Shown: one piece after another, positions 10,023 through 64,000 of the stretch
How positions within the stretch are numbered: the first letter of the stretch is position 1
Layout: every line of letters begins with the position of its first letter
NCBI GenBank assembly: GCA_041650835.1
Contig: JBAZKL010000004.1
Span: 230,900-294,899 of the forward strand
Source of the DNA: Candidatus Omnitrophota bacterium
Lineage (GTDB): Bacteria; Omnitrophota; Gorgyraeia; Gygaellales; Profunditerraquicolaceae
Direction of reading: 5' to 3'
DNA length: 64,000 nt
Position numbers and translations under genes: made by a program
The notes under the pieces: model-generated
The model's input: only the letters and a program-made list of their open reading frames with translations
Told to the model about the DNA's origin: nothing
Databases searched by the model: none

Positions 10023-10093
10023 CTGGGACGCATGGATTCGAACCATGATAGCGAGACCCAAATTCTCGTGTCCTACCATTGGACGACATCCCA
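10023..10093 (-). tRNA. tRNA-Gln (anticodon UUG).
   Basis: Cloverleaf folded by hand: acceptor TGGGATG/CGTCCCA, anticodon stem CGAGA/TCTCG with loop ATTTGGG, T-arm CATGG-TTCGAAT-CCATG, discriminator G. Confidence 0.75.
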
Positions 10094-50041: not shown

Positions 50042-50114
50042 AGCGGGAGACGGGGATCGAACCCGCGACAACTACCTTGGCAAGGTAGCGCTCTACCAAC
50101 TGAGCTACTCCCGC
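50042..50114 (-). tRNA. tRNA-Gly (anticodon GCC).
   Basis: GCGGGAG acceptor, anticodon stem CTACC/GGTAG with loop TTGCCAA, T-arm GCGGG-TTCGATC-CCCGT. Confidence 0.8.
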
Positions 50115-50337
50115 GTCGTTCTACATAGATGAATTGTAATGAAGTAACGCTTGATCTTTTGCTCAACGCTGCTACTTTCCTATCTATGAAATCTCAAACT
50201 TTCAAATTCGAGGAAAACGTTTTCATTCCCACGAAAAAAAATATTACAGCCGAACTCCTTCCTGATATATTAGAATTTCCTGTCCGAGAATTAGAAAACC
50301 CACGGCCACCTCATGATAGAGGGCAAGCATGTTTATG

Positions 50338-50409
50338 GGCGGAAGAGGAGTTGAACCTCCAAGGGTTGCCCCAATAGCTCCTAAGGCTATCGCGTATGCC
50401 AGTTCCGCC
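50338..50409 (-). other. tRNA-like degenerate element: a perfect 7-bp acceptor-like stem (GGCGGAA/TTCCGCC) and a GGAGGTTCAACTCC T-arm-like hairpin, but no canonical D or anticodon arm.
   Basis: Hand-folded. A GNRA-like GGGG-CAA-CCC hairpin replaces the anticodon arm; the element lies between tRNA-Gly and tRNA-Lys on the same strand. Confidence 0.25.
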
Positions 50410-50410
50410 A

Positions 50411-50535
50411 TCCGCCCGCAAGACGCAGTAACGAGTAAACAGTAACAAATAACTAGTAATTAACTATTAATGCGGGCAGAGGAAATTCCTGGAATTCCTG
50501 TTACGTATTACTCGTTACTCGCTTACTAGTTACTA
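50411..50535. repeat. Large imperfect palindrome built from gtaacgagta / tactcgttac words around a gaaattcctggaattcc centre.
   Basis: Inverted arms cagtaacgagtaaacagtaacaaataactagtaa ... ttacgtattactcgttactcgcttactagttac. Confidence 0.5.
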
Positions 50536-50644
50536 AAATCTCTTACAATAAAAGACCGCTTTTGAATTGTCCCTCTCCGCTAAACTCCGCTTCAAGGGCA
50601 ACTCGGGATTAATTTTCCCCACGCACAGCATGGGAAAAATTTAA

Positions 50645-50717
50645 TGAGCCTCCCGCGGCTCGAACGCGGCACAACCACATTAAAAGTGTGGTGCTCTACC
50701 AGATGAGCTAGAGGCCC
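50645..50717 (-). tRNA. tRNA-Lys (anticodon UUU).
   Basis: Acceptor GGGCCTC/GAGGCTC, anticodon stem CCACA/TGTGG with loop CTTTTAA, T-arm CCGCG-TTCGAGC-CGCGG. Confidence 0.8.
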
Positions 50718-54871: not shown

Positions 54872-56173
54872 TTATTTGCGGCCCTTTATATCTTTAATAA
54901 CCGTAACGATCCGAGTGACTTTGCCGCCTTCTAAAACAGGTATTTTCCTTGTTTCCGTGGAATAACGCTTATCTTTTATCTTAACTCTTTCTTTCGTAAC
55001 CAGCGTCTTTCTGGTTTTCAAGACTTTTTGATATTCATCATATACGCTTTCAGACAAAAAGGGGAAAACCTCAAACAATTCCTTGCCGATAACAGGGCCC
55101 TTAATCCGTATATTCTTAGTCCACTGCGTAAAGACCTTATTGAGCAAAAGGATCCGCAACTGACGGTCAACAACATGAACCGCGTCCCCCATCGAGTCCA
55201 GCGTCATACGATACTGCAATTCGGAGGACTTCCTCTTCTCTTCAGCAAGCTTATATTCGGTAATATCATACAAATGGCCCAGATAATGCGTAATACGGCC
55301 GGCATCATCCTGAGGAAGGATCGTAAAAACATGCACCCACTTATAGATACCGCCTAAACACCGGATACGGTATTCAGCTTCAAAACAGCCCGTGCTCTTC
55401 TTTATATTCTCTTTAACATCTTCTTCTAAACGCTTACGGTCATCAGGATGAAGCAGGTTAGCGTATAGTATCTTTCCGGTCATAAAATCGGCCGGTTCAT
55501 AGCCAAACTGGTTTGAAACATTTTCCGATACATACTCTACCGGCCAACCTTCCTGCGCCTTCCACTTGAATACTACGGTCGGGCCGCTGATAAACAATTT
55601 CCTTTCCGCATCCAGCTCTTCCTGTATCCTGATACGCTTATCGATCTCAAGATGAAGGTCTTCATTGGCTTTACTGAGTTCTGCGGTACGCACCTTGACC
55701 CGGATCCCCAATTCAGCCCGGGAATTCCGCAGATCTTCTTCCATTTTCTTACGCTCGGTAATATCAAAAATGACGCCTACCAACCCTCCGGTAAGGCCAA
55801 CTTCATTCAGAAATGTTTCTTTATAAAACACGACATTGTGCTTGGCGCCGTTTGTTGCGGAAACATAGCTTTCATATTCCTGAATGCCGCCTTCTTTAAA
55901 TAATTCCCGGTCTTTTTTATAGTAAATTTCAGCCAGGTCTTTCGGAAAAAGCTCAAAAACTGTCTTACCGATCAATTGCTCTTTCGATAAACCTACATAG
56001 CGCTCAAACTCCAGGTTACACCCTAAATACTTACCGGAAAAATCTTTATAGAAAATAGGAATAGGGATAGCATCGATCACGACCTGCAAGAAACGCAATT
56101 GCTCCTGCGATTCATTAAACGCCTGCTCTCTCTTGTTCGAAGCTGATTCGGAATTATGGTTTTGATCCTGCAT
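54872..56173 (-). CDS. Cytoplasmic sensor protein with three tandem PAS domains and no recognisable output domain.
   Basis: Three PAS-like repeats (IPIPIFYKDFSGKYLGCN...; GPTVVFKW...; MGDAVHVVDRQLRILLLNK...) separated by coiled-coil linkers. Confidence 0.7.
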   Translation of the reverse strand: MQDQNHNSESASNKREQAFNESQEQLRFLQVVIDAIPIPIFYKDFSGKYLGCNLEFERYVGLSKEQLIGKTVFELFPKDLAEIYYKKDRELFKEGGIQEYESYVSATNGAKHNVVFYKETFLNEVGLTGGLVGVIFDITERKKMEEDLRNSRAELGIRVKVRTAELSKANEDLHLEIDKRIRIQEELDAERKLFISGPTVVFKWKAQEGWPVEYVSENVSNQFGYEPADFMTGKILYANLLHPDDRKRLEEDVKENIKKSTGCFEAEYRIRCLGGIYKWVHVFTILPQDDAGRITHYLGHLYDITEYKLAEEKRKSSELQYRMTLDSMGDAVHVVDRQLRILLLNKVFTQWTKNIRIKGPVIGKELFEVFPFLSESVYDEYQKVLKTRKTLVTKERVKIKDKRYSTETRKIPVLEGGKVTRIVTVIKDIKGRK

Positions 56174-56271: not shown

Positions 56272-56299
56272 TATTATAACACTCGCTCTTAAGCTGTCA
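56272..56299 (-). promoter_or_regulatory. Near-consensus sigma70 promoter (TTGACA-16-TATAAT) for the PAS gene. It overlaps the stop of the upstream radical-SAM gene.
   Basis: Both hexamers match consensus exactly when read on the minus strand. Confidence 0.5.
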
Positions 56300-57415
56300 A
56301 CCTTTGATTTTGGCTTTTTTATCGAAAACCCCGGAAGGATATCCGGATTTGACCTCAAAAGGATACTCGTGGTACTCGTAATCCAATTTAAAGAAAAGGC
56401 TCATTTGAGCCATTTTTTCAATGATCTTGCTGATTGGCTTATCTTGCGCGGATATAAAAGAGGGATTATTCCTTATTTTCAAATAGCGCGAATCAATACC
56501 CGGGCAAATAATGCCTAAGCCGCATTCCAGGCATTCTTTATGTGTATGAGCGCTTTGATTATAATTAAACATGGGTTCCGGTTTAAAGGATGTATTCTTT
56601 CCCAAAACCTGATCATTATAGAAAAACATTTTGTTTTTTCTCAGCTTTAACGGCAGCTCAAGGCAGAGATATTCAAAACCTTTATACAAACATAGTGGGA
56701 AACGGCTTATAACAACACCTATATCGTTACTAACCGCATATTTAATGACACTCTGAAGATAACCGGCAAACTTATTATAATCAGGGATAAGCTGCGGATC
56801 CTCACAGACCCGCCCCTCAAGATTAAGCGTCTTTATATGTACCAAAAAATCCCTGCCGCCTAAGAGCTTTTTCAACAGCTTGAAAACCGCCAGTATTTTA
56901 GTGTAATTGAGGGAATTCGGGATGAAATTAAAAAAGATCACCATTTTACTTTTATAATCCCTGATATTTTCCACCCCTCTGATCAACTCATCAAAAGCAT
57001 CCACGCCCATAAGGGCTCGAAACATCGCTTTATCGTGAGCATGCACGGAGATTTCAATAGAATCGAGGTATTTTAAGATCCGCCGCGCGAATTTCCGGTC
57101 AGCGAATTTAATGCCATTGGTGACTAAATACGTCTTTATCCCCTGACGGTGAATGAAGCGCAATATCTCCTCCAAGTCTTCCCGCAGCGTTGTCTCCCCC
57201 CCCATAAAATTGATCGCTTCAATACCCATCGATTTAAGCTTCAGCACAGTTTGTTTGATAACGCTCAAATCGACATTAACCGGGTGAGTATGCCGGCCTT
57301 CGGAGCAAAACAGGCAACGCGCGTTACAAAACGAAGTCACATTCAGGATCGCCGTCTCACCCTTGATCTTCCTAACGCCGGTCTTAAGATTTGGCAATAT
57401 GCTCATAATATTCAA
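56297..57415 (-). CDS. Radical SAM protein (CNARCLFC) with a C-terminal Cys-rich auxiliary-cluster region; last gene of the radical-SAM operon.
   Basis: CxxxCxxC in the first 35 aa, a GGE motif (NFMGGETTL) and a C-terminal HTHKECLECGLGIICPG. Confidence 0.75.
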   Translation of the reverse strand: MNIMSILPNLKTGVRKIKGETAILNVTSFCNARCLFCSEGRHTHPVNVDLSVIKQTVLKLKSMGIEAINFMGGETTLREDLEEILRFIHRQGIKTYLVTNGIKFADRKFARRILKYLDSIEISVHAHDKAMFRALMGVDAFDELIRGVENIRDYKSKMVIFFNFIPNSLNYTKILAVFKLLKKLLGGRDFLVHIKTLNLEGRVCEDPQLIPDYNKFAGYLQSVIKYAVSNDIGVVISRFPLCLYKGFEYLCLELPLKLRKNKMFFYNDQVLGKNTSFKPEPMFNYNQSAHTHKECLECGLGIICPGIDSRYLKIRNNPSFISAQDKPISKIIEKMAQMSLFFKLDYEYHEYPFEVKSGYPSGVFDKKAKIKG

Positions 57416-57420
57416 TAAAG

Positions 57421-59073
57421 TTATTTACCGGCACGTTGCCGGATATATGGCTTGCTCAGGGTGACAGAAACATCCTTTCCGATAAACTTTCTTGCCGCGT
57501 GGTCCCGGGTCTTAATAATAAATGACGCGGAAAACTCCCGGAATAATATAAATTTGCTTTGCATGGTATGTATCGCCTGGCCGCAATCAATAAAACAGGT
57601 TGACGGATATTTCCGCCTCAGGCCTCCTGAAGCGCGATGCCCATGCACCCAGACCTCAGGCATCAACTCCACAGGAAGAAGCTCAGTAAGCAACTGAGCG
57701 GCCTTGCCGACTTTTATCAAATCAACAGGGTAATGAGAGAACACGATCCTGATAGAATCGGCTTTCCTCTTTAAAATGTTCATCAGCTTCTCAAAGGTTT
57801 CTTCGCGTATCGTATCCGCAGCGGCCAATTCTTTATCGGCAGGAAAAGCGTCTATCGGTAAAATAATAGAGCAAATATTACCATCCTCGAAAAACGTAAA
57901 CAGCTTACCGCAAAGGTATTTACGAAACCACGTAAGGAGCGGCTTCCTGTTCTTATAAACATAGTCATGATTCCCCAGGACATGCGTGATCGATCTTCTC
58001 TGCGCACAAACAGCAAGAATTCTTTTATATGCCGTATACGCCGCGGCCCCCCGGTCGCCCTCCACCGTATCACCCACAAAAAAGCCTTTTGACCAGAAAA
58101 CCGAATTACTATCCCGCAGTATCGCCCCTACCTTGCCTGCGTTGGTTCCTGAGGCATGCAGGTCCGCGAGGCACCAGAAAGAAAGGTATTTATCCGGAGC
58201 GTTTATCGTGTTGAGCTCCCCCTCACAGCCTAAAGCGTCCCGGCAGCGAAGACACTCTTTTTTCTTACTTACCATTCTGTTTATAAGCGGCGCCAAGCGC
58301 TTGCGTTTACCGTCTTCAAAGACGACAGAGATATCCCTTACATTTGTATTTTCTTTGATCTTGAATTTATTCAAGCCTCTCGCGAGGCAGCGGGGGATAA
58401 AATAAAGCGTTCCCCGGGCCAAACGGACCGACGCGAGGTTACGGACTAACCTGCGGATATCCGCGTAGTCGAGCAATTTATCCTTATCGATATCGACTTC
58501 ACCGGTAAAATCAAGGCGGAAAGGCACTACCGGGCTTACCATAAAGAAATTAATGCCCCGTTGAGCGAAGAAATCGAGCGTCGTATGGGCATGGGCAATA
58601 TTATAACGGTGGAGCAAAAGGCTGCCCCCCAAATCTATCCCTTTTCCGCGAAGGTTCTTAATGCCCCGCGTGAGCTCCTGAAAACTTCCGCTTACCCCGG
58701 TAATCTTTTCATGGACACCTTGTTTATGCGAATGAAGCGAAAAGACCACCTTAGTCACGCCCGCCGCGACGATCCTCCTGCAAAAATCCCGATAATACAA
58801 CATCCTCCCGTTGGTAAAGAGCGTTATGTGCCTGAAGCCATTCTCGCGCGCCTGACTGACGTACTCAAATATACGCGGGCTGGTGGTAGGTTCCGCCCCT
58901 CTTAAATCAATGCGCGTAACTCCTCGCCCGGCAGCGTTCTTGATCGCCGCCAATACAAAATCTTTGTCGGGGGAGCCGGATGGATGGATTTTGCAAAAGA
59001 AGCATGCGTTATTACACGCATGGGTAAACTGAATGATGATTATTTTTTTACGTTTTTCTTCCAAACTCAACAT
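57421..59073 (-). CDS. Fusion protein: N-terminal radical SAM domain (CNNACFFC) plus a C-terminal calcineurin-like metallophosphoesterase domain.
   Basis: Radical-SAM core to about aa 300 (GAEPT, CLRCRDALGCEG), then MPP motifs ADLHAS, GDTVEGDRG, GNHD, HGH. Confidence 0.75.
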   Translation of the reverse strand: MLSLEEKRKKIIIIQFTHACNNACFFCKIHPSGSPDKDFVLAAIKNAAGRGVTRIDLRGAEPTTSPRIFEYVSQARENGFRHITLFTNGRMLYYRDFCRRIVAAGVTKVVFSLHSHKQGVHEKITGVSGSFQELTRGIKNLRGKGIDLGGSLLLHRYNIAHAHTTLDFFAQRGINFFMVSPVVPFRLDFTGEVDIDKDKLLDYADIRRLVRNLASVRLARGTLYFIPRCLARGLNKFKIKENTNVRDISVVFEDGKRKRLAPLINRMVSKKKECLRCRDALGCEGELNTINAPDKYLSFWCLADLHASGTNAGKVGAILRDSNSVFWSKGFFVGDTVEGDRGAAAYTAYKRILAVCAQRRSITHVLGNHDYVYKNRKPLLTWFRKYLCGKLFTFFEDGNICSIILPIDAFPADKELAAADTIREETFEKLMNILKRKADSIRIVFSHYPVDLIKVGKAAQLLTELLPVELMPEVWVHGHRASGGLRRKYPSTCFIDCGQAIHTMQSKFILFREFSASFIIKTRDHAARKFIGKDVSVTLSKPYIRQRAGK

Positions 59074-59086
59074 GGATGGACCTGCG

Positions 59087-60199
59087 CTATTTTACTCTCT
59101 CGGAATAATGATAAAAACAGCCTTTACAGGCGGGAGACAGGCTTCGGGCAAACAAAGCCCTTACCTCTTGCGCCTGATGGCCATTCCAGATTTCCGCAAA
59201 AGAACGCTCCTTAATATTACCTATAAAAACATCATGACAGATATAAATATCGCCATTAGGCATAAGATTGACCTGATGCCAGGGCGCCGTGCAATACCGG
59301 CGGTAATGTAATGCCCCCCGGTTATCTTTATAATACGGGATAATTTCATCCGGGTACAGATCCGGACTGAAAGACACCGCGCGGTTCTTTTTGACTTTCT
59401 TGATCTCGGCAATAAACCGGGAGAAATCAATATCCCCCGGAGAATAGGTATATCCCGGCCAAAGTTCAAGCGACGTAATATTGAACTTCTCCCGTAAAAA
59501 CTTTTTTTGCATTTCCAGCGTCTCCTGATTTATAAACATGAGATGCTGAAAATGGTAGTTGTCTACTGCTATGCCGGCCTGCCGCATGAACTCAATGAAC
59601 TCTCCCATATAAGCATAACTGAGATCCGAAAGAGTATATAAAACACTTAACCGGGGCCGGTTGGCGTGTTTTTTCTTATACAGCGTAAGAGCGTCCAACC
59701 CCTCGATGATCGCCTTAAAATGAGCGAAAGAATTCTCCCTGATCAAATGAAGGATTGACGGCGGGCCACCCAGGGAAAGACTGACCTGGTCTAATACCCG
59801 GACAACCTTTGTAAGGTTTTTTAAAAGATAGACGCCGTTTGTGGTAACGGAAACCCGCACCCCCCGTTCTTTAAAACACCGGGCAAGGTGGTACCAACGG
59901 GGAGATAAAAGCGGTTCCCCTCCCGAAAAAGTCACCGTCTTGGGGCTAAACGCCGTAATTTCCTGCGCGAATTTTTCCAGGTCTTTGCGGCTTAAAGAGG
60001 CTTTATATTTGTTAAGGAACCCTTTTTTTCTGCACGGCCCGTGGATCCCCCACCACGAACAAACTTTACAGCGCAGGTTACAGCGCAGTGAAAACATGAT
60101 ATAAACCTCTCCTACAGAAGAGGCCTTCAATAAATCATTACTGGCCCTTCCCTTAAGGGATAAAGCCAAAGCTTGCGTATCTACTTTTAGATCAAGCAT
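59087..60199 (-). CDS. Radical SAM / SPASM-domain protein (CNLRCKVC).
   Basis: SGGEPLL and a C-terminal SPASM pattern CTAPW...NGDIYICHDVFIGNI...CKGCFYHY. Confidence 0.8.
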   Translation of the reverse strand: MLDLKVDTQALALSLKGRASNDLLKASSVGEVYIMFSLRCNLRCKVCSWWGIHGPCRKKGFLNKYKASLSRKDLEKFAQEITAFSPKTVTFSGGEPLLSPRWYHLARCFKERGVRVSVTTNGVYLLKNLTKVVRVLDQVSLSLGGPPSILHLIRENSFAHFKAIIEGLDALTLYKKKHANRPRLSVLYTLSDLSYAYMGEFIEFMRQAGIAVDNYHFQHLMFINQETLEMQKKFLREKFNITSLELWPGYTYSPGDIDFSRFIAEIKKVKKNRAVSFSPDLYPDEIIPYYKDNRGALHYRRYCTAPWHQVNLMPNGDIYICHDVFIGNIKERSFAEIWNGHQAQEVRALFARSLSPACKGCFYHYSERVK

Positions 60200-62199
60200 C
60201 GCGCGTCTCCTGGTCCCTGCCGCTTGAGCGGGAAATACATATGCGAGTGAAAGAATTCCCAGAACATCTCCTCGATAATGAAATTATTCATAACGATCTC
60301 TTTTTCCCGAGAGCCGTTCTTATGCGAACGCATAAGACGGCATAACGCGGCGTCAAGTTCAGCGGTAAAAGCCTTACGATGCCCGGGAGCAGCGATATCG
60401 CCGATGTAAGCGGTTCTTTTAAGGTATTGAAAGCGTTTTGAGGAAATAAGGCTCCCGCAGAGATACATCTTGCCTTCGAGATCAACGGTAATCCCGGGGA
60501 ACGCAGCGCCGCAAGCGCCGGTTTGCCCGCAATTCAATATCTGAGCTGCCTTACGGAAATAAAGGTCCCTGCTTATTCTAAAAAGACAGACAAAAGCCCG
60601 TGCCACGCAAGACGCGTCATACAAAACAGCCGGATCATAAGAAAACATTATTTTTTTCACTCCCCGCCCTGCCAAAAAAGAAACATTTTCCTTAAAGCCT
60701 TCAAGATTTAATAAGGGGACATCCAGCATGACCCCGAAATCTCCGCCGCGATCATTGAAACGTTTTATCATTGCCGATACCTGCCGCTTTAAGGATGCCG
60801 GGCAAGCTCCACCATCGATCTTCAAAAGATACGTCACCTTCTGCCGTGAAAGAAAATCAATTTTTTCTTCATCAAGCGATAACCCGGGGCTTACCAGCGT
60901 GCAGGTAAGCTGCTTGGGATGAGAAGCCATTCTTTGCCGGGTATAGAGAAGTGCTGCCCTGATCATTTCAAAACACGCAAAAGGCTCTTTGCAGGAGAAT
61001 TCCAGTTCGACCTTATTCTCTAAAGAAGCAAACAGCATATCAATGCTTTTCTTTAAAGCCCTCTCACCCATGAACGCTTCAGTGCCCGCGCGGGAATAAG
61101 GGCGCTGCAGGGACCGCTCCGGGTGAAGAAAGAAAATGATTTTCCTGAATGAAAAATAACGCTCCCCCCTGATCTTCTTTTTGAACGGATGGCTCTCAAA
61201 GAGGTCGTATTCCCGGCGTAAATGATTAAATTTATATAAAAACTCTCCTGCGATCCCCGCATAAATATTAGCCAGCAATTTCCGGTCCAGGAAGCGGGCG
61301 TGCCTGCGGATAAGCGCTGCCTGCGCGCCTTTAGTCATTTTTAAAGCCGTCAACTCCTTAAAATCATCAAGTTTACCAAAATAAAAAATACGGTTTAATT
61401 CCGGGCACAGCTTCTCCAATACCAGCGCGCACCCGATAAAGACCTTTCCGCCGGCAGTGATATTGATCTGCGGACAATACAATATCGGCTCGCAATCAGC
61501 CTCAAAATTCAGGATCCGGCCCCCCGTCCCTTGTACTGCTTTGAGCAAACCACACAATTCCCGGATAAACACGAAAGAATCCTTCTCTGAATATTTCTGT
61601 CCCAGCGCGTAAGCGACCCAAATACGCAGCATCCCTTTACTTCTTAAAAAATCGATGTTCTTGCGCACCCCGGGAATATCTTCGCGCAAAACCACCATAT
61701 TCACGAAATATCGGATCTTATACTTATTCAACAGGCCGATATTGCGCAGCAACTGTGAAAAATAATCTTCATTCCCCGCCTTCATCGGCCTGTTCTTTAA
61801 CTGCGTCACCTGAGCGCCGTCAATACTGACCATGACCTGGACTTTCTCACGAAAAAGAAAACCGGCCTTCTCTTCATCAAGAAGCAGCCCGTTAGTCGTA
61901 AGCAAATATTCGATGTTTTTGCCGGTGGCCTTTTTTTTCATGCCCGCATACGCTACTGCTTTTTTGATCAGGTCGAAGCGCAGCAGCGGTTCACCGCCGA
62001 AAAACTGTAATTCTATCTTCTTCTCAAAAGAAGTAAATAACAGGTCAATGGACTTTTTCAGAACATCTTCCGGCATATCCGGCTGGTCGCGGTTTAAGAA
62101 ACAATACCGGCACGACAACGGACAACGGGTAGTAAGCATCACCGCGACATTACGGATGCTCGACGGTTCTTTAAAGCGCGTGAACTCCACGCGTTCCAT
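60187..62199 (-). CDS. Twin radical-SAM/SPASM protein: an intact N-terminal domain (CPLSCRYC) followed by a duplicated second domain lacking the CxxxCxxC triad. The start is probably MERVEF.
   Basis: Internal repeat evident (DLLFTSFEKKIELQFFGGEPLLRFDLIKKAVAYA vs DMLFASLENKVELEFSCKEPFACFEMIRAALLYT). Both halves end in Cys-rich SPASM-like segments. Confidence 0.75.
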   Translation of the reverse strand: MERVEFTRFKEPSSIRNVAVMLTTRCPLSCRYCFLNRDQPDMPEDVLKKSIDLLFTSFEKKIELQFFGGEPLLRFDLIKKAVAYAGMKKKATGKNIEYLLTTNGLLLDEEKAGFLFREKVQVMVSIDGAQVTQLKNRPMKAGNEDYFSQLLRNIGLLNKYKIRYFVNMVVLREDIPGVRKNIDFLRSKGMLRIWVAYALGQKYSEKDSFVFIRELCGLLKAVQGTGGRILNFEADCEPILYCPQINITAGGKVFIGCALVLEKLCPELNRIFYFGKLDDFKELTALKMTKGAQAALIRRHARFLDRKLLANIYAGIAGEFLYKFNHLRREYDLFESHPFKKKIRGERYFSFRKIIFFLHPERSLQRPYSRAGTEAFMGERALKKSIDMLFASLENKVELEFSCKEPFACFEMIRAALLYTRQRMASHPKQLTCTLVSPGLSLDEEKIDFLSRQKVTYLLKIDGGACPASLKRQVSAMIKRFNDRGGDFGVMLDVPLLNLEGFKENVSFLAGRGVKKIMFSYDPAVLYDASCVARAFVCLFRISRDLYFRKAAQILNCGQTGACGAAFPGITVDLEGKMYLCGSLISSKRFQYLKRTAYIGDIAAPGHRKAFTAELDAALCRLMRSHKNGSREKEIVMNNFIIEEMFWEFFHSHMYFPLKRQGPGDARCLI

Positions 62200-64000
62200 A
62201 TTTGCGGACATATGCGGACCAGACTCCTTCGCACCAGCCATTTTCTTTGCATGATGCGCAAAACTTAAACTTGATCTTTTTTGACGCGCGTTGTTTAACG
62301 CACTTACTCAAAGTACCCTTAAGCGTCATGACTTCATCAAAAGGACGGTACGGCTCAAAGGCGCGCAGGCTCAATTGAGCTAACGAACATAAAGGAAAAC
62401 CTTCGCAATAAAGCTTCCGGGTGAATTCCGGAAGCTGAGCGCTTATTCTGCGCAATTGGCGCGTAACTGCCGGTATCGCCGGGATGTCGGCTTGCGGGAC
62501 CTGTATATACCCCAACGAATTACTTACGAAAACAAGATGCAATTCATCAACACCCAGTTTTAGCAAGAACGCGCAGCATTCGTACAACGACTCAAGATTA
62601 GCGTTGGAGACAAAAAGGTCCGCCTGGATAGACAGGCAGCGCGCGTTCTCCCTGATATTCCTGATACCGGCAATTGCCTGGCGAAAAGCGCCTTTAACCA
62701 GGCTCTGCCGGTCATGAACATGCTCCAGCCCGAAAAAAGGTATAATGACTTTTTCCAAAGAGCTAAAACCCCCCAACGCTTTTACCAATCCCGGATACGA
62801 TAACAGACGGGCGTTGGTGTATAAGAAAAGGTTATGCATCTCCAACGCGTCGCTGTAACGCAGTATATCCATGATATCTTTCCTTAAGAGCGGCTCTGCG
62901 CCCGCCAAAACAACATACTCCCCTCTGCTCTTGGCAAGCTCAAGCTCTGAGCTTACCTGCGCGAAGCTTTTCTGCGCACGCAAGCGATCTTTCGCCAACA
63001 GGCAAAACTCACAATTATTATTACAGGTATTGGAGAGTTGTATAATGCTCGTCCGGGGCTTTATCATGCCGGAGAATTCTTCAAGCCTTTTTTCGCTATG
63101 CTCCAGGGTAAAAGCAGGCGGCGTGTGATCAGCGCCTAAATAATAATCTTTCCGGAGCAAGCCTTTCTGTTCAAAGATATCATGGATCAGCGTCATCGGA
63201 TAGACTTTGACAATGTTCACCAGCAGGTTATCCGGGTCACAATCACGGACATAACAGGCGGTTTCCCTTATCGTCTCCTCTGTTTCACCCAGATTTCCGA
63301 CCATAAGCATAAGAACAGTCCTGATCCCCGCGCGCGCGGTAAGCCGAAAGGCCTTTTTTGACTTTACTAAATCAAGGTTCTTGCCGGTCAAACGCTGGAT
63401 CCGCACGGATGCGCTCTCTAATCCATAAGATATCTCAAAACAGCCTGCCCGCGCCATGAGGACCAGTAACGGCGCGTCGACCGAATCTGAACGGGTCATA
63501 CATGTCCAGCTTATTTTAAGCCCTGCTTTCAGGATCCCTTCGCATATCGCGACAACTCTTTTCCTGTCCCGTGTAAAGAAATTATCGCCAAAAACAAAAT
63601 TCCTGATCTTGAACTTTTCATGAAAATGCCCGACCATCGCGACAAAATACCCGGGGCTGTGAAAGCGTATCTTGTCCCCCGTCACCTTGCTCATCGGGCA
63701 AAAATTACAACTATAGACACAACCGCGGGAAGAAAGCAATAAGAGAGCGTTGCGGAAGCTTGTGCAGCGCTTCCCCAGGATAAAATTTTTCTTAGCTGAA
63801 AGGCTGTCCGGGCAGTTTATCTTTTTCTGAAAACCCTTAAAAAGATGGAACGCAGGATAAGCCAGGCGATCCAGATCGGTAATACCGCGCCGGTCTTTGG
63901 TACGCGCCACTTTCCCATGCCGCAGATACGCGATCCCGTCAATCGCGCCGGTATCTCCTTTTGTTTTCAGGCAAGAGACTAATTCGACAAAAGTCCGCTC
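62171..64000 (-). CDS. Class-B (B12-binding type) radical SAM protein carrying a second radical-SAM domain. The 5' end is partial: the reading frame stays open to the window edge.
   Basis: ...IDGIAYLRHGKVARTKDRRGITDLDRLAYPAFHLF...SSRGCVYSCNFC (class-B hallmark), then LSNTCNNNCEFC (second CxxxCxxC) and C-terminal CASCKENGWCEG. No stop between 63910 and 64000. Confidence 0.75.
   Translation of the reverse strand, partial: ERTFVELVSCLKTKGDTGAIDGIAYLRHGKVARTKDRRGITDLDRLAYPAFHLFKGFQKKINCPDSLSAKKNFILGKRCTSFRNALLLLSSRGCVYSCNFCPMSKVTGDKIRFHSPGYFVAMVGHFHEKFKIRNFVFGDNFFTRDRKRVVAICEGILKAGLKISWTCMTRSDSVDAPLLVLMARAGCFEISYGLESASVRIQRLTGKNLDLVKSKKAFRLTARAGIRTVLMLMVGNLGETEETIRETACYVRDCDPDNLLVNIVKVYPMTLIHDIFEQKGLLRKDYYLGADHTPPAFTLEHSEKRLEEFSGMIKPRTSIIQLSNTCNNNCEFCLLAKDRLRAQKSFAQVSSELELAKSRGEYVVLAGAEPLLRKDIMDILRYSDALEMHNLFLYTNARLLSYPGLVKALGGFSSLEKVIIPFFGLEHVHDRQSLVKGAFRQAIAGIRNIRENARCLSIQADLFVSNANLESLYECCAFLLKLGVDELHLVFVSNSLGYIQVPQADIPAIPAVTRQLRRISAQLPEFTRKLYCEGFPLCSLAQLSLRAFEPYRPFDEVMTLKGTLSKCVKQRASKKIKFKFCASCKENGWCEGVWSAYVRKYGTRGVHAL

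What the first reader, a model, noticed from the sequence alone, without database searches (positions are those of the whole stretch)
57421..59073. Radical SAM fused to a calcineurin-like metallophosphoesterase
A single 550-aa protein has an N-terminal CNNACFFC radical-SAM core and a C-terminal domain with the full MPP motif set (DxH-like ADLHAS, GDxxDRG, GNHD, GHxH). I do not recall a described family with a covalent fusion of radical chemistry to a phosphoester hydrolase. It suggests a phosphorylated or nucleotide-linked substrate or intermediate: radical modification followed by phosphate removal, or the reverse order.
Basis: seen in the sequence. Interest (0 to 1): 0.7.

Follow-up and report, generated by a model that had tools for sequence, protein, structure and literature searches.

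The report
Radical-SAM enzyme fused to metallophosphoesterase domain
A real, rare and evolutionarily conserved two-domain enzyme from an uncultivated Omnitrophota bacterium joins a radical-SAM enzyme of the HxsC type to a metal-dependent phosphoesterase-fold domain, inside an operon of six radical-SAM genes related to peptide-maturation (His-Xaa-Ser) systems; what the extra domain hydrolyses is unknown.

Summary

All MPP metal and catalytic residues are invariant except the second His of 'GHxH', which every fused member lacks.

The family is very rare: 12 representatives among 1.84 billion proteins.

The rSAM half is HxsC/HxsC4-like but below the curated thresholds. The gene always sits among rSAM genes, and in six of seven contexts a paralogous ~360-aa rSAM gene follows it directly. 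In three relatives the cluster also carries Hxs components: threshold-passing HxsB (two loci) and HxsD (one), and (HGS)n...W precursor peptides (two). The window has no such precursor.

Two members have lost the rSAM cysteine motif but keep the MPP site.

Best reading: a bifunctional tailoring enzyme of an expanded Hxs-type multi-rSAM maturation system. No evidence identifies a phosphorylated or nucleotide-linked substrate. New variant of known kinds; moderate interest.

The parts
57421..59073 (-). Fusion gene, 550 aa: HxsC-like radical-SAM domain, 4-Cys linker domain and metallophosphoesterase domain
   Evidence: ORF; Pfam; identical protein on two independent contigs; family alignment.
58534..59073 (-). 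Radical-SAM core (residues 1-180), including CxxxCxxC at 58993-59016 (C20, C24, C27) and a GGE-like 'GAEPT' motif (G59-E61)
   Evidence: Pfam PF04055 at 66.3 bits. Foldseek matches BlsE, GDGT-MAS, SkfB, viperin and MoaA at E 7.5e-10 to 1e-7. The Cys motif is conserved in 8 of 10 members.
58207..58533 (-). Cys-containing linker domain (residues 181-289) with four invariant cysteines: C229 (58387-58389) and C274-x2-C277-x5-C283 (58225-58254). Probable auxiliary Fe-S or metal site
   Evidence: Invariant in all 10 members, including the two without CxxxCxxC. The same P-x-C ... CxxCx5C-x-G pattern occurs in the paralogous partner. Cluster binding is inferred, not shown.
57454..58188 (-). Metallophosphoesterase-fold domain (residues 296-540). 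Motif I D304-x-H306 (58156-58164); motif II GDxVEG (58057-58074); motif III GNHD (57964-57975); motif IV H447 (57733-57735); motif V G478-H479 (57637-57642); invariant R523-x-H525 (57499-57507)
56297..57406 (-). Conserved partner gene: a 369-aa HxsC-like radical-SAM paralogue, directly downstream of the fusion in six of the seven contexts examined. The ATG at 57406 fits the homologues' start MHSxPDLKTG; the mechanical ORF starts at TTG 57415
   Evidence: Paralogous to the fusion's N-half, 24% identity over 289 aa. Counterparts sit directly after the fusion in L007, L008, L010, L049, L051 (44-53% identity) and L005 (71%, partial).
59087..60199 (-). Upstream rSAM/SPASM gene (370 aa) of the same operon
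   Evidence: Pfam Radical_SAM and SPASM. Counterparts in the HxsA-containing loci L008 (38%) and L053 (36%).
60187..62241 (-). 684-aa PapB/HxsB-like rSAM gene with a second, Cys-motif-less rSAM-like half; overlaps both neighbouring genes
   Evidence: Counterparts in L049 (39%), L008 (36%) and L052 (28% over the full length).
62171..64000 (-). 3' part of a 739-aa B12-binding rSAM plus HxsC-like rSAM gene, cut by the window end. A further 1115-aa rSAM-B12-rSAM gene and a PDDEXK (AddB-like) gene lie beyond the window
   Evidence: L001 gene table; NCBIfam; counterpart in L052/L053 at 38% over the full length.
56273..56300 (-). Perfect sigma-70-type promoter consensus (TTGACA, 16 nt, TG-TATAAT; 12 of 12) at the 3' end of the last rSAM gene. 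Marks the operon's downstream boundary and is the likely promoter of the PAS gene
   Evidence: This is a consensus match only. The PAS gene has no counterpart next to the fusion in distant relatives.

Best explanation
The gene encodes a genuine bifunctional enzyme that belongs to a multi-radical-SAM maturation operon of an Omnitrophota bacterium.

N-terminal half (shown by sequence, fold and conservation): an HxsC/HxsC4-like radical-SAM enzyme with CxxxCxxC for the SAM-cleaving [4Fe-4S] cluster, a GGE-like SAM motif, and a C-terminal four-Cys site.

C-terminal half (shown likewise): a divergent MPP-fold domain. Its metal ligands D304, H306, D335, N368, H447 and H479, and its His/acid dyad H369-D/E370, are invariant. 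From my own knowledge, this is the same six-ligand set that PPP-type phosphatases use, so the missing second His of GHxH does not by itself preclude a dimetal centre.

Inferred mechanism: the enzyme works with its paralogous partner rSAM, encoded directly downstream in six of the seven contexts examined, and with the other rSAM enzymes of the operon. Their common substrate is most likely a ribosomal peptide or protein of the HxsA type, (HGS)n...W, which in this genome must be encoded elsewhere. The rSAM half would perform H-atom-abstraction chemistry. The MPP half would use its metal centre to hydrolyse an ester, most plausibly a phosphoester or phosphodiester, on the same substrate, on an intermediate or on a co-substrate.

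In two lineages the rSAM half has become a non-catalytic scaffold while the MPP site is kept. This suggests the hydrolase activity is independently selected and that the N-half at least provides substrate binding.
For: - **Architecture real and conserved:**
- **MPP fold and active site:**
- **MPP half as constrained as the rSAM half:** mean pairwise identity 31.6% against 31.5%, and 23 invariant columns against 4.
- **HxsC-like nature of the N-half:** the best NCBIfam hits are HxsC4 (81 bits) and HxsC (66 bits). Genomic relatives retrieved through the rSAM half lie in loci with (HGS)n...W precursors in Myxococcota and Elusimicrobia.
- **Direct linkage to Hxs components in fusion-containing clusters:** L008/L011 has HxsD (67.5 against a cutoff of 50), HxsB (494 against 370) and an HxsA-like peptide with 6 HxS repeats. 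L049 has HxsB (522 against 370) and a Pfam HxsD hit. L053 has an 88-aa (HGS)8...HGQW precursor.
- **The window operon is a subset of those clusters:** g2, g3, g4 and g6 have counterparts there.
- **Conserved partner gene:**
- **Loss of CxxxCxxC with retention of the MPP site** in P0010 and P0011, verified at the DNA level and in independent samples.
- **HxsB/HxsC/HxsD are experimentally shown to mature the HxS-repeat protein HxsA:** PMC13128918.
Against: - No HxsA, HxsB (above threshold) or HxsD is encoded in the window or in the 10 kb beyond it. L007 (a minimal three-rSAM cluster) and L010 also show none in the sequence available.
- The rSAM half fails the curated HxsC and HxsC4 thresholds by a wide margin.
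- Nothing in any cluster would obviously install a phosphate or nucleotide on a peptide. The characterised HXS system needs no phosphoesterase, and its paper mentions none.
- The second His of GHxH, a canonical ligand of metal site 1, is missing in all fused members, so the metal site may be altered.
- The relative orientation of the two domains is not confidently predicted, with pTM 0.63.
Confidence: 0.5

Rival explanations
1. Nucleotide or small-molecule pathway. The rSAM half modifies a nucleotide, nucleotide-sugar or other phosphorylated small molecule, as viperin, MoaA, BlsE, DesII or OxsB do. The MPP half then removes phosphate or cleaves a phosphodiester or pyrophosphate, analogous to OxsB working with the phosphohydrolase OxsA.
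For: - The best structural matches of the N-half include nucleoside- and nucleotide-using rSAMs: BlsE, viperin, MoaA and DesII.
- The closest structural neighbours of the MPP domain are nucleotide phosphodiesterases or pyrophosphatases: Lmo2642, ADPRibase-Mn-like 2nxf and Rv0805.
- There is precedent for an rSAM acting in concert with a phosphohydrolase: OxsB/OxsA, PMC9204698.
- The window operon has no precursor peptide.
Against: - The rSAM fold matches are generic: peptide maturases SkfB, SuiB and anSME score similarly. Scores against the viperin and MoaA family models are far below threshold, at 32.6 against 180 and 58.6 against 325.
- The PADLOC pVip hits are shared by five of the six rSAM proteins of the operon and cover only the core.
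- No nucleotide-metabolism genes are present in any cluster.
- Sequence affinity and genomic linkage point to Hxs-type peptide systems.
Confidence: 0.2
2. The MPP-fold domain does not hydrolyse phosphoesters. Either it uses a remodelled metal site for other chemistry on the peptide, as the calcineurin-fold lasso-peptide epimerase MslH does at a C-terminal Trp, or it serves as a metal-binding or docking module for the His-rich (HGS)n substrate.
For: - All fused members lack the second His of GHxH, a canonical ligand of metal site 1.
- Linked precursors end in ...HGQW.
- No phosphate-installing enzyme is present in the clusters.
Against: - The six remaining ligands plus the GNH(D/E) dyad are invariant, as expected for a working phosphoesterase site.
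- A C-terminal Trp is a general feature of (HGS)n precursors in loci without any MPP fusion, so it gives no specific support.
Confidence: 0.2
3. Membrane-lipid modification operon. The multiple B12-rSAM and GDGT-MAS-like rSAM enzymes remodel lipid tails, and the MPP domain acts on a phospholipid head group, as GpdQ or acid sphingomyelinase do.
For: - GDGT-MAS is the second-best structural match of the N-half.
- The B12-rSAM genes weakly hit lipid-biosynthesis rSAM models such as TIGR04072, HpnJ and HpnR.
- GpdQ and sphingomyelinases are among the MPP neighbours.
- The minimal cluster L007 is flanked by MlaD/ABC and FloA/NfeD genes.
Against: - All those model scores are far below threshold.
- The same proteins hit RiPP methyltransferase and maturase models equally well or better.
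- There is direct linkage to HxsA, HxsB and HxsD in three clusters.
Confidence: 0.07
4. Assembly, frameshift or chimera artefact joining two separate genes.
For: None was found. Read-level support across 58100-58300 could not be examined.
Against: - The identical 550-aa protein occurs in two independent assemblies.
- The same architecture occurs in at least 9 further independent samples or assemblies at 25-75% identity, with a conserved junction.
- The MPP domain is found almost only in fused form: 9 of 12 representatives, counting the truncated P0004.
Confidence: 0.01

Closest known systems
HxsC / HxsC4 radical-SAM maturases of the His-Xaa-Ser (HXS) system (TIGR03977, NF038332; PMC13128918)
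   Same: - These are the best-scoring curated families for the N-terminal half.
- The layout is the same: an rSAM core plus a C-terminal second Cys site.
- Relatives of the fusion sit in clusters with threshold-passing HxsB and HxsD and with HxS-repeat precursors.
- HxsC is known to act with HxsB and HxsD on the HxS-repeat protein HxsA.
   Different: - Scores are 66 and 81 bits against cutoffs of 268 and 500, so it is not a member by the curated definition.
- It carries a 255-aa MPP domain that no described HxsC has.
- It occurs in operons of 3 to 15 or more rSAM genes rather than the four-gene hxsDBCA unit.
- The window operon lacks HxsA, HxsB and HxsD.
- The host is Omnitrophota rather than Proteobacteria.
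Calcineurin-like metallophosphoesterases of the phosphodiesterase / purple-acid-phosphatase branch (Lmo2642 2xmo, ADPRibase-Mn-like 2nxf, GpdQ 2dxl, PAP 7ov8, Rv0805 3ib7)
   Same: - Motifs DxH, GD, GNH(D/E), H and GH are present and invariant.
   Different: - Only 12-18% identity, and no sequence-level PDB hit for the single protein.
- The second His of GHxH is absent.
- It has an extra invariant R-x-H near the C-terminus.
- It is covalently fused behind an rSAM enzyme.
- Its substrate is unknown.
OxsB (B12-radical-SAM) working with OxsA (HD-domain phosphohydrolase) in oxetanocin-A biosynthesis (PMC9204698)
   Same: It is a functional pairing of radical-SAM chemistry with a metal-dependent phosphohydrolase acting on one substrate.
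   Different: OxsA and OxsB are separate polypeptides. OxsA has the HD fold, not the MPP fold. The substrate is a free deoxyadenosine phosphate, and there is no peptide context.
MslH, calcineurin-fold lasso-peptide epimerase (8gq9; PMC10406935)
   Same: It is an MPP-fold domain recruited into a RiPP maturation pathway, with one canonical metal site altered, acting on a precursor that ends in Trp.

Membership tests
Radical SAM superfamily (PF04055) | CxxxCxxC motif for the SAM-binding [4Fe-4S] cluster | tested here: met
   C20, C24 and C27 (CNNACFFC). Conserved in 8 of 10 family members and absent from P0010 and P0011.
Radical SAM superfamily (PF04055) | Profile score above the Pfam gathering threshold, and a partial TIM-barrel fold | tested here: met
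   66.3 bits against a cutoff of 29.5. Foldseek E 7.5e-10 to BlsE, and also GDGT-MAS, SkfB, viperin and MoaA.
Radical SAM superfamily (PF04055) | Reductive cleavage of SAM | not testable with these tools
   Needs anaerobic biochemistry.
Calcineurin-like metallophosphoesterase superfamily (PF00149) | Profile score above the gathering threshold | tested here: met
   22.3 bits against a cutoff of 21.5, which is marginal. 9 of 10 family members hit it, best E 6e-14.
Calcineurin-like metallophosphoesterase superfamily (PF00149) | Alpha-beta-beta-alpha sandwich fold | tested here: met
   [not shown]
Calcineurin-like metallophosphoesterase superfamily (PF00149) | Motifs DxH, GD, GNH(D/E), H and GH, which supply six metal ligands and the catalytic His | tested here: met
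   D304, H306, D335, N368, H369, H447 and H479 are invariant in 10 fusion proteins down to 25% identity.
Calcineurin-like metallophosphoesterase superfamily (PF00149) | Second His of the GHxH motif (fourth ligand of metal site 1 in Mre11, CpdA, PAP and LpxH-type MPPs) | tested here: not met
   The position two residues after H479, where the second His would lie, is S, A, L, E, Y, D, M or T in the 10 fused members and never His. It is present as GHTH or GHAH in the non-fused relatives P0013-P0015. From my own knowledge, PPP-family phosphatases also lack this ligand.
Calcineurin-like metallophosphoesterase superfamily (PF00149) | Phosphoester hydrolysis | not testable with these tools
   Needs enzyme assays.
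HxsC, His-Xaa-Ser system rSAM maturase (TIGR03977) | Score at or above the curated cutoff of 267.9 bits | tested here: not met
   65.8 bits.
HxsC, His-Xaa-Ser system rSAM maturase (TIGR03977) | Encoded next to HxsB, HxsD and an HxS-repeat HxsA | tested here: not met
   None is present in the window or in L001 by an HxS-repeat scan and by tblastn. The feature is met in part for relatives: L008 has HxsD, HxsB and HxsA; L049 has HxsD and HxsB; L053 has HxsA.
HxsC4 (NF038332) | Score at or above the curated cutoff of 500 bits | tested here: not met
   81.1 bits. It is the best NCBIfam hit but lies far below the cutoff.
SPASM/twitch auxiliary-cluster rSAM enzymes (PF13186) | C-terminal Cys-rich domain binding one or more auxiliary [4Fe-4S] clusters | tested here: inconclusive
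   There is no PF13186 hit. However, four cysteines (C229 and C274-x2-C277-x5-C283) are invariant in all members. Cluster binding was not shown.
Viperin (NF038283) and MoaA (TIGR02666/TIGR02668): nucleotide-modifying rSAMs | Score at or above the curated cutoff (180; 284 and 325) | tested here: not met
   32.6 bits for viperin, and 41 and 58.6 bits for MoaA. The PADLOC pVip hits cover only the rSAM core and are shared by five of the six rSAM proteins of the operon.
MslH-like calcineurin-fold peptide epimerases | Close structural similarity to MslH | tested here: not met
   [not shown]

The most novel reading that the evidence does not exclude
Maturation of HxS-repeat peptides in these expanded Omnitrophota systems may involve a step that needs a dimetal hydrolase physically tethered to an rSAM active site. 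One possibility is a transient phosphorylated or nucleotidylated peptide intermediate, a modification type not known in rSAM-dependent RiPP or protein maturation. The other is non-phosphoryl chemistry by a remodelled MPP site, analogous to MslH. In either case the rSAM-MPP fusion and its partner rSAM, which is adjacent in six of seven contexts, would define a new two-enzyme tailoring module.
Probability: 0.2. Interest if true: 0.8.

Novelty: new variant of a known kind. Interest (0 to 1): 0.55.

Why it matters
Radical-SAM enzymes and metallophosphoesterases are both large, well-studied superfamilies. I found no description of a covalent fusion of the two, and the database sources name these proteins only as generic 'radical SAM protein'.

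The fusion is rare but clearly under selection, which implies that a metal-dependent hydrolytic step is mechanistically coupled to radical chemistry on one substrate.

It sits in operons of 3 to 15 or more rSAM genes in an uncultivated phylum. These operons are linked to the His-Xaa-Ser system, whose chemistry (a +8 Da modification) is unresolved and which was only recently shown to be an antiphage defence.

Identifying what the MPP domain hydrolyses could reveal a new type of peptide modification intermediate. It would also give a handle on what these very large rSAM clusters make.

The members that lost the rSAM cysteines provide a natural separation-of-function experiment.

Tried and rejected
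- **Sequence search of the PDB with the MPP domain alone:** no significant hit. A family profile gave only weak hits to a dimetal phosphatase and to PAPs, so fold methods were needed.
- **Word-indexed homologue searches with the C-terminal domain or its profile:** these returned almost nothing. The exhaustive HMMER search was what revealed the family.
- **Genome-collection scan with the 13-sequence profile:** failed because it had no sufficiently conserved stretch. With a 7-sequence alignment it found only one full-length match, the Omnitrophota MAG UBA9636, plus 37 matches to the rSAM half only.
- **Metagenome scan with an MPP-only alignment:** found nothing. That collection evidently lacks these contigs.
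- **AFDB search for the same two-domain architecture:** library unavailable.
- **Split-gene form:** the nearest non-fused relatives (P0013-P0015) are signal- or TM-anchored proteins with a degenerate motif I (D-M-K or D-V-Y). The one context examined, for P0013, is archaeal housekeeping with no rSAM genes. No split form was found.
- **MslH-like reading supported by the C-terminal Trp:** rejected as specific evidence, because (HGS)n...W precursors occur in many loci without the fusion.
- **pVip (viperin) hits in PADLOC:** rejected as generic rSAM-core similarity.
- **Precursor in the window:** no HxS-repeat ORF and no HxsA or HxsD homologue.
- **Literature:** no paper on an rSAM-MPP fusion. The HXS paper mentions no phosphoesterase. 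The Omnitrophota genome preprint mentions rSAM only as a Pfam count.
Full report
**1. The observation**

The window carries an uninterrupted ORF at 57421-59073 on the minus strand, with an ATG start and 550 aa.
- Pfam finds Radical_SAM at residues 14-168 (66.3 bits, cutoff 29.5).
- Pfam finds Metallophos at residues 298-479 (22.3 bits, cutoff 21.5), which only just passes.
- The rSAM motif is C20-NNA-C24-FF-C27.

D304-L-H306, G367-N-H-D370 and H447 are present. Two need correction:
- The conserved motif II is G334-D335-x-V-E338-G339. The 'DRG' that follows is out of register and its Arg is variable.
- There is no GHxH. Only G478-H479 is conserved, and the second His is absent.

**2. Not an artefact**

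- The identical protein is encoded on two independently assembled contigs, ENA ERZ27247363 and Logan SRR8542065.
- Two 550-aa homologues at 75% and 72% identity share the entire gene order. One is on a 646-kb contig of a MAG that NCBI names Candidatus Omnitrophota.
- An exhaustive HMMER search of 1.84 billion representative proteins with the C-terminal domain alone found only 12 hits. Eight of them are 513-551-aa proteins that carry the domain at the same C-terminal position, at 28-76% identity.
- Adding the window protein and P0002 gives 10 full-length fusion proteins. They align end to end across the junction, with W300 invariant.

**3. Both domains are real folds**

- An AlphaFold2 model built on the 10-member alignment has mean pLDDT 84.2.
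- Foldseek against the PDB matches the N-half to rSAM enzymes: BlsE at E 7.5e-10, then GDGT-MAS, SkfB, viperin, SuiB, MoaA and anSME. It matches the C-half to the MPP Rv0805 at E 1.3e-6.
- A model of the C-domain alone has pLDDT 92.2 and pTM 0.91.
- At sequence level the domain is so divergent that it has no PDB hit as a single sequence. As a profile it has only weak hits, 2nxf at E 0.003 and PAPs at 0.016.
- The full-length pTM of 0.63, with no PAE or coordinates available, means the relative domain orientation and any shared channel could not be assessed.

**4. Conservation pattern**

Across the 10 fusion proteins, down to 25% identity, the following are invariant:
- D304, H306, G334, D335, E338, G339, G367, N368, H369, H447, G478 and H479.
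- R523 and H525.
- Four cysteines: C229 and C274-x2-C277-x5-C283.

Position 370 is always D or E.

The MPP half is as conserved as the rSAM core. Mean pairwise identity is 31.6% against 31.5%, and it has 23 invariant columns against 4.

The six retained ligands, D, H, D, N, H and H, are the set used by PPP-type phosphatases. That comparison is from my own knowledge. The missing second His of GHxH is therefore a deviation but not proof of inactivity.

The three non-fused relatives show the opposite pattern. They keep GHxH but have D-M-K or D-V-Y in place of DxH.

Two fused members, P0010 and P0011, have lost the CxxxCxxC motif altogether. P0011 has also lost the GGE-like motif. Both keep every MPP residue and the four linker cysteines. 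No alternative frame restores the motif, and the P0010 DNA is identical in two independent samples.

**5. Genomic context**

*The window operon.* The fusion is the fifth of six consecutive, tightly spaced or overlapping rSAM genes on the minus strand. Two extend beyond the window and were seen in L001:
- a 1115-aa rSAM-B12-rSAM protein
- a 739-aa B12-rSAM plus HxsC-like protein
- a 684-aa PapB/HxsB-like protein
- a 370-aa rSAM/SPASM protein
- the fusion
- a 369-aa HxsC-like rSAM

A perfect sigma-70 consensus at 56300-56273 (-) sits at the end of the last rSAM gene, ahead of the PAS gene.

*The partner gene.* The 369-aa gene is a paralogue of the fusion's N-half, at 24% identity over 289 aa including the P-x-C and CxxCx5C-x-G cysteines.
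- Its counterpart lies directly downstream of the fusion in L007, L008, L010, L049 and L051 (44-53% identity) and L005 (71%, partial).
- In L052/L053 a partner-like domain is instead fused to the upstream B12-rSAM protein.

*Cluster size.* L007 carries three rSAM genes. L008/L009, L049 and L010 carry from about 10 to 15 or more.

**6. Link to His-Xaa-Ser systems**

- The best curated-family hits of the N-half are HxsC4 (81 bits, cutoff 500) and HxsC (66 bits, cutoff 268). It is similar to them but not a member.
- In L008 (Omnitrophota UBA9636) the cluster begins with HxsD (67.5 against 50) and HxsB (494 against 370). A Cys-rich secreted protein and a 95-aa peptide ending ...HQSGTTHASHPSHTSHGSHGQW follow.
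- L049 has HxsB (522 bits) and a Pfam HxsD hit.
- L053 has an 88-aa peptide ending in (HGS)8-HGQW, again next to a Cys-rich secreted protein.
- Genomic relatives retrieved through the rSAM half, from Myxococcota, Elusimicrobia and CPR, frequently carry (HGS)n...SW or QW precursors. Their HxsC-like genes also fall below the curated cutoffs.
- The window genes g2, g3, g4 and g6 have counterparts in these Hxs-linked clusters. The PAS, lipoprotein and membrane genes do not.
- The window and the 10 kb beyond it encode no HxsA or HxsD homologue and no threshold-level HxsB.
- The canonical four-gene HXS system was recently shown to be an antiphage defence. HxsB, HxsC and HxsD process HxsA and install a +8 Da modification (PMC13128918). 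That paper mentions no phosphoesterase and no Omnitrophota.

**7. Interpretation**

*Shown:*
- A rare, conserved, bifunctional-looking protein.
- The MPP metal site is under purifying selection.
- An rSAM paralogue lies directly downstream in six of the seven contexts examined.
- The protein belongs to multi-rSAM operons that, in three of six distinct contexts, are anchored by Hxs components.

*Inferred:*
- The enzyme tailors an HxsA-type peptide or protein, which in this genome must be encoded elsewhere.
- The rSAM half performs H-abstraction chemistry.
- The MPP half hydrolyses an ester bond on the same substrate or on an intermediate.

The Cys-less members suggest that the N-half can serve purely as a substrate-binding scaffold and that the hydrolase activity is selected independently.

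The nature of the hydrolysed bond is unknown. No kinase or nucleotidyltransferase is present in any cluster.

Rivals:
OxsB/OxsA is a precedent (PMC9204698).
- Non-phosphoryl chemistry or a docking role for the MPP fold. MslH is a precedent (PMC10406935). The C-terminal Trp of the precursors is generic and gives no specific support.
- Lipid modification.
- An assembly artefact, which is effectively excluded.

**8. Novelty and score**

Both domains belong to known superfamilies, and the N-half belongs to a known, broad HxsC-like clade. The covalent combination, its conserved partner gene and its setting in giant rSAM operons of Omnitrophota are, as far as I could find, undescribed.

I rate it a new variant of known kinds, with moderate interest (0.55). 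The mechanism question is concrete and experimentally tractable, but the present evidence does not show new chemistry.

Noticed in passing
L008 5276-5563 (+), same as L011; L053 16122-16388 (-): These are HxsA-like precursor peptides of 95 and 88 aa. Each has a Lys-rich N-terminus (PKIKK...EEGK[IV]SKK), a hydrophobic segment and a C-terminal (H-x-S)n run ending in SHGQW. They are 41% identical to each other, and each lies next to a Cys-rich secreted protein (257 or 344 aa). Neither peptide hits any NCBIfam model.
   Followed up: partly
L008/L009 3030-21656; L049 1-16850; L010 1-13743: Very large runs of consecutive radical-SAM genes occur in Omnitrophota-type contigs, from about 10 to 15 or more, several with B12-binding domains or double rSAM domains. 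In L008 and L049 they are anchored by threshold-passing HxsB, and L008 also has threshold-passing HxsD. These look like greatly expanded Hxs-type systems, far larger than the four-gene HXS defence unit described in 2026.
   Followed up: partly
L004 1432-2716 (NCBI GCA_040961635.1, JBFOMZ010065863.1): A 41%-identical homologue (P0004) keeps the rSAM domain, the junction, DLHAS and GDTVKGDRG, but stops at 359 aa where GNHD should be. About 60 bp later, a 48-aa ORF (...FFKMDYFYHDYPF...) resembles the C-terminal tail of the partner rSAM. This looks like a deletion that removed two-thirds of the MPP domain and most of the partner gene.
   Followed up: partly
window 60187-62241 (-): The 684-aa rSAM protein has a second half that resembles an rSAM domain but lacks CxxxCxxC. 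Its homologue in L004 (26-1426) has an intact CVNDCIFC in that half. The gene overlaps both neighbours, by 13 nt at its 3' end and by about 70 nt at its 5' end.
   Followed up: no
L049 8862-10004; L010 13758-14933: Multi-pass membrane proteins with a prepilin-peptidase (A24)-like W-x-AGDAKLF motif lie immediately upstream of the fusion (L049, overlapping by 4 nt) or at the end of the cluster (L010, with a Pfam Peptidase_A24 hit). They are candidate leader peptidases for the HxsA-like precursors.
   Followed up: no
L052 6775-9987; L053 2904-6116: A 1070-aa protein combines the B12-rSAM plus HxsC-like architecture of window gene g2 (38% identity over the full length) with a partner-like rSAM domain at its C-terminus. 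In this lineage the partner is fused to the upstream gene rather than encoded downstream of the MPP fusion.
   Followed up: no
window 56273-56300 (-): A perfect 12-of-12 sigma-70 consensus with an extended -10 TG lies at the stop codon of the last rSAM gene, upstream of a triple-PAS protein with no output domain (54872-56173).
   Followed up: no
window 50042-50717 (-) and 10023-10093 (-): Three tRNA genes lie within about 700 bp, downstream of the rpsB-tsf-pyrH(-frr) block, and there is a fourth tRNA near 10 kb. GC skew is negative throughout the window, consistent with most genes being on the minus strand.
   Followed up: no
P0013, P0014, P0015 (non-fused relatives); L054: The nearest non-fused relatives of the MPP domain are signal- or TM-anchored proteins. 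One is 893 aa with a large N-terminal extension. They keep GHxH and the R-x-H motif but replace DxH with D-M-K or D-V-Y. P0013 sits in an archaeal-looking context (Trm56, RFC small subunit).
   Followed up: partly
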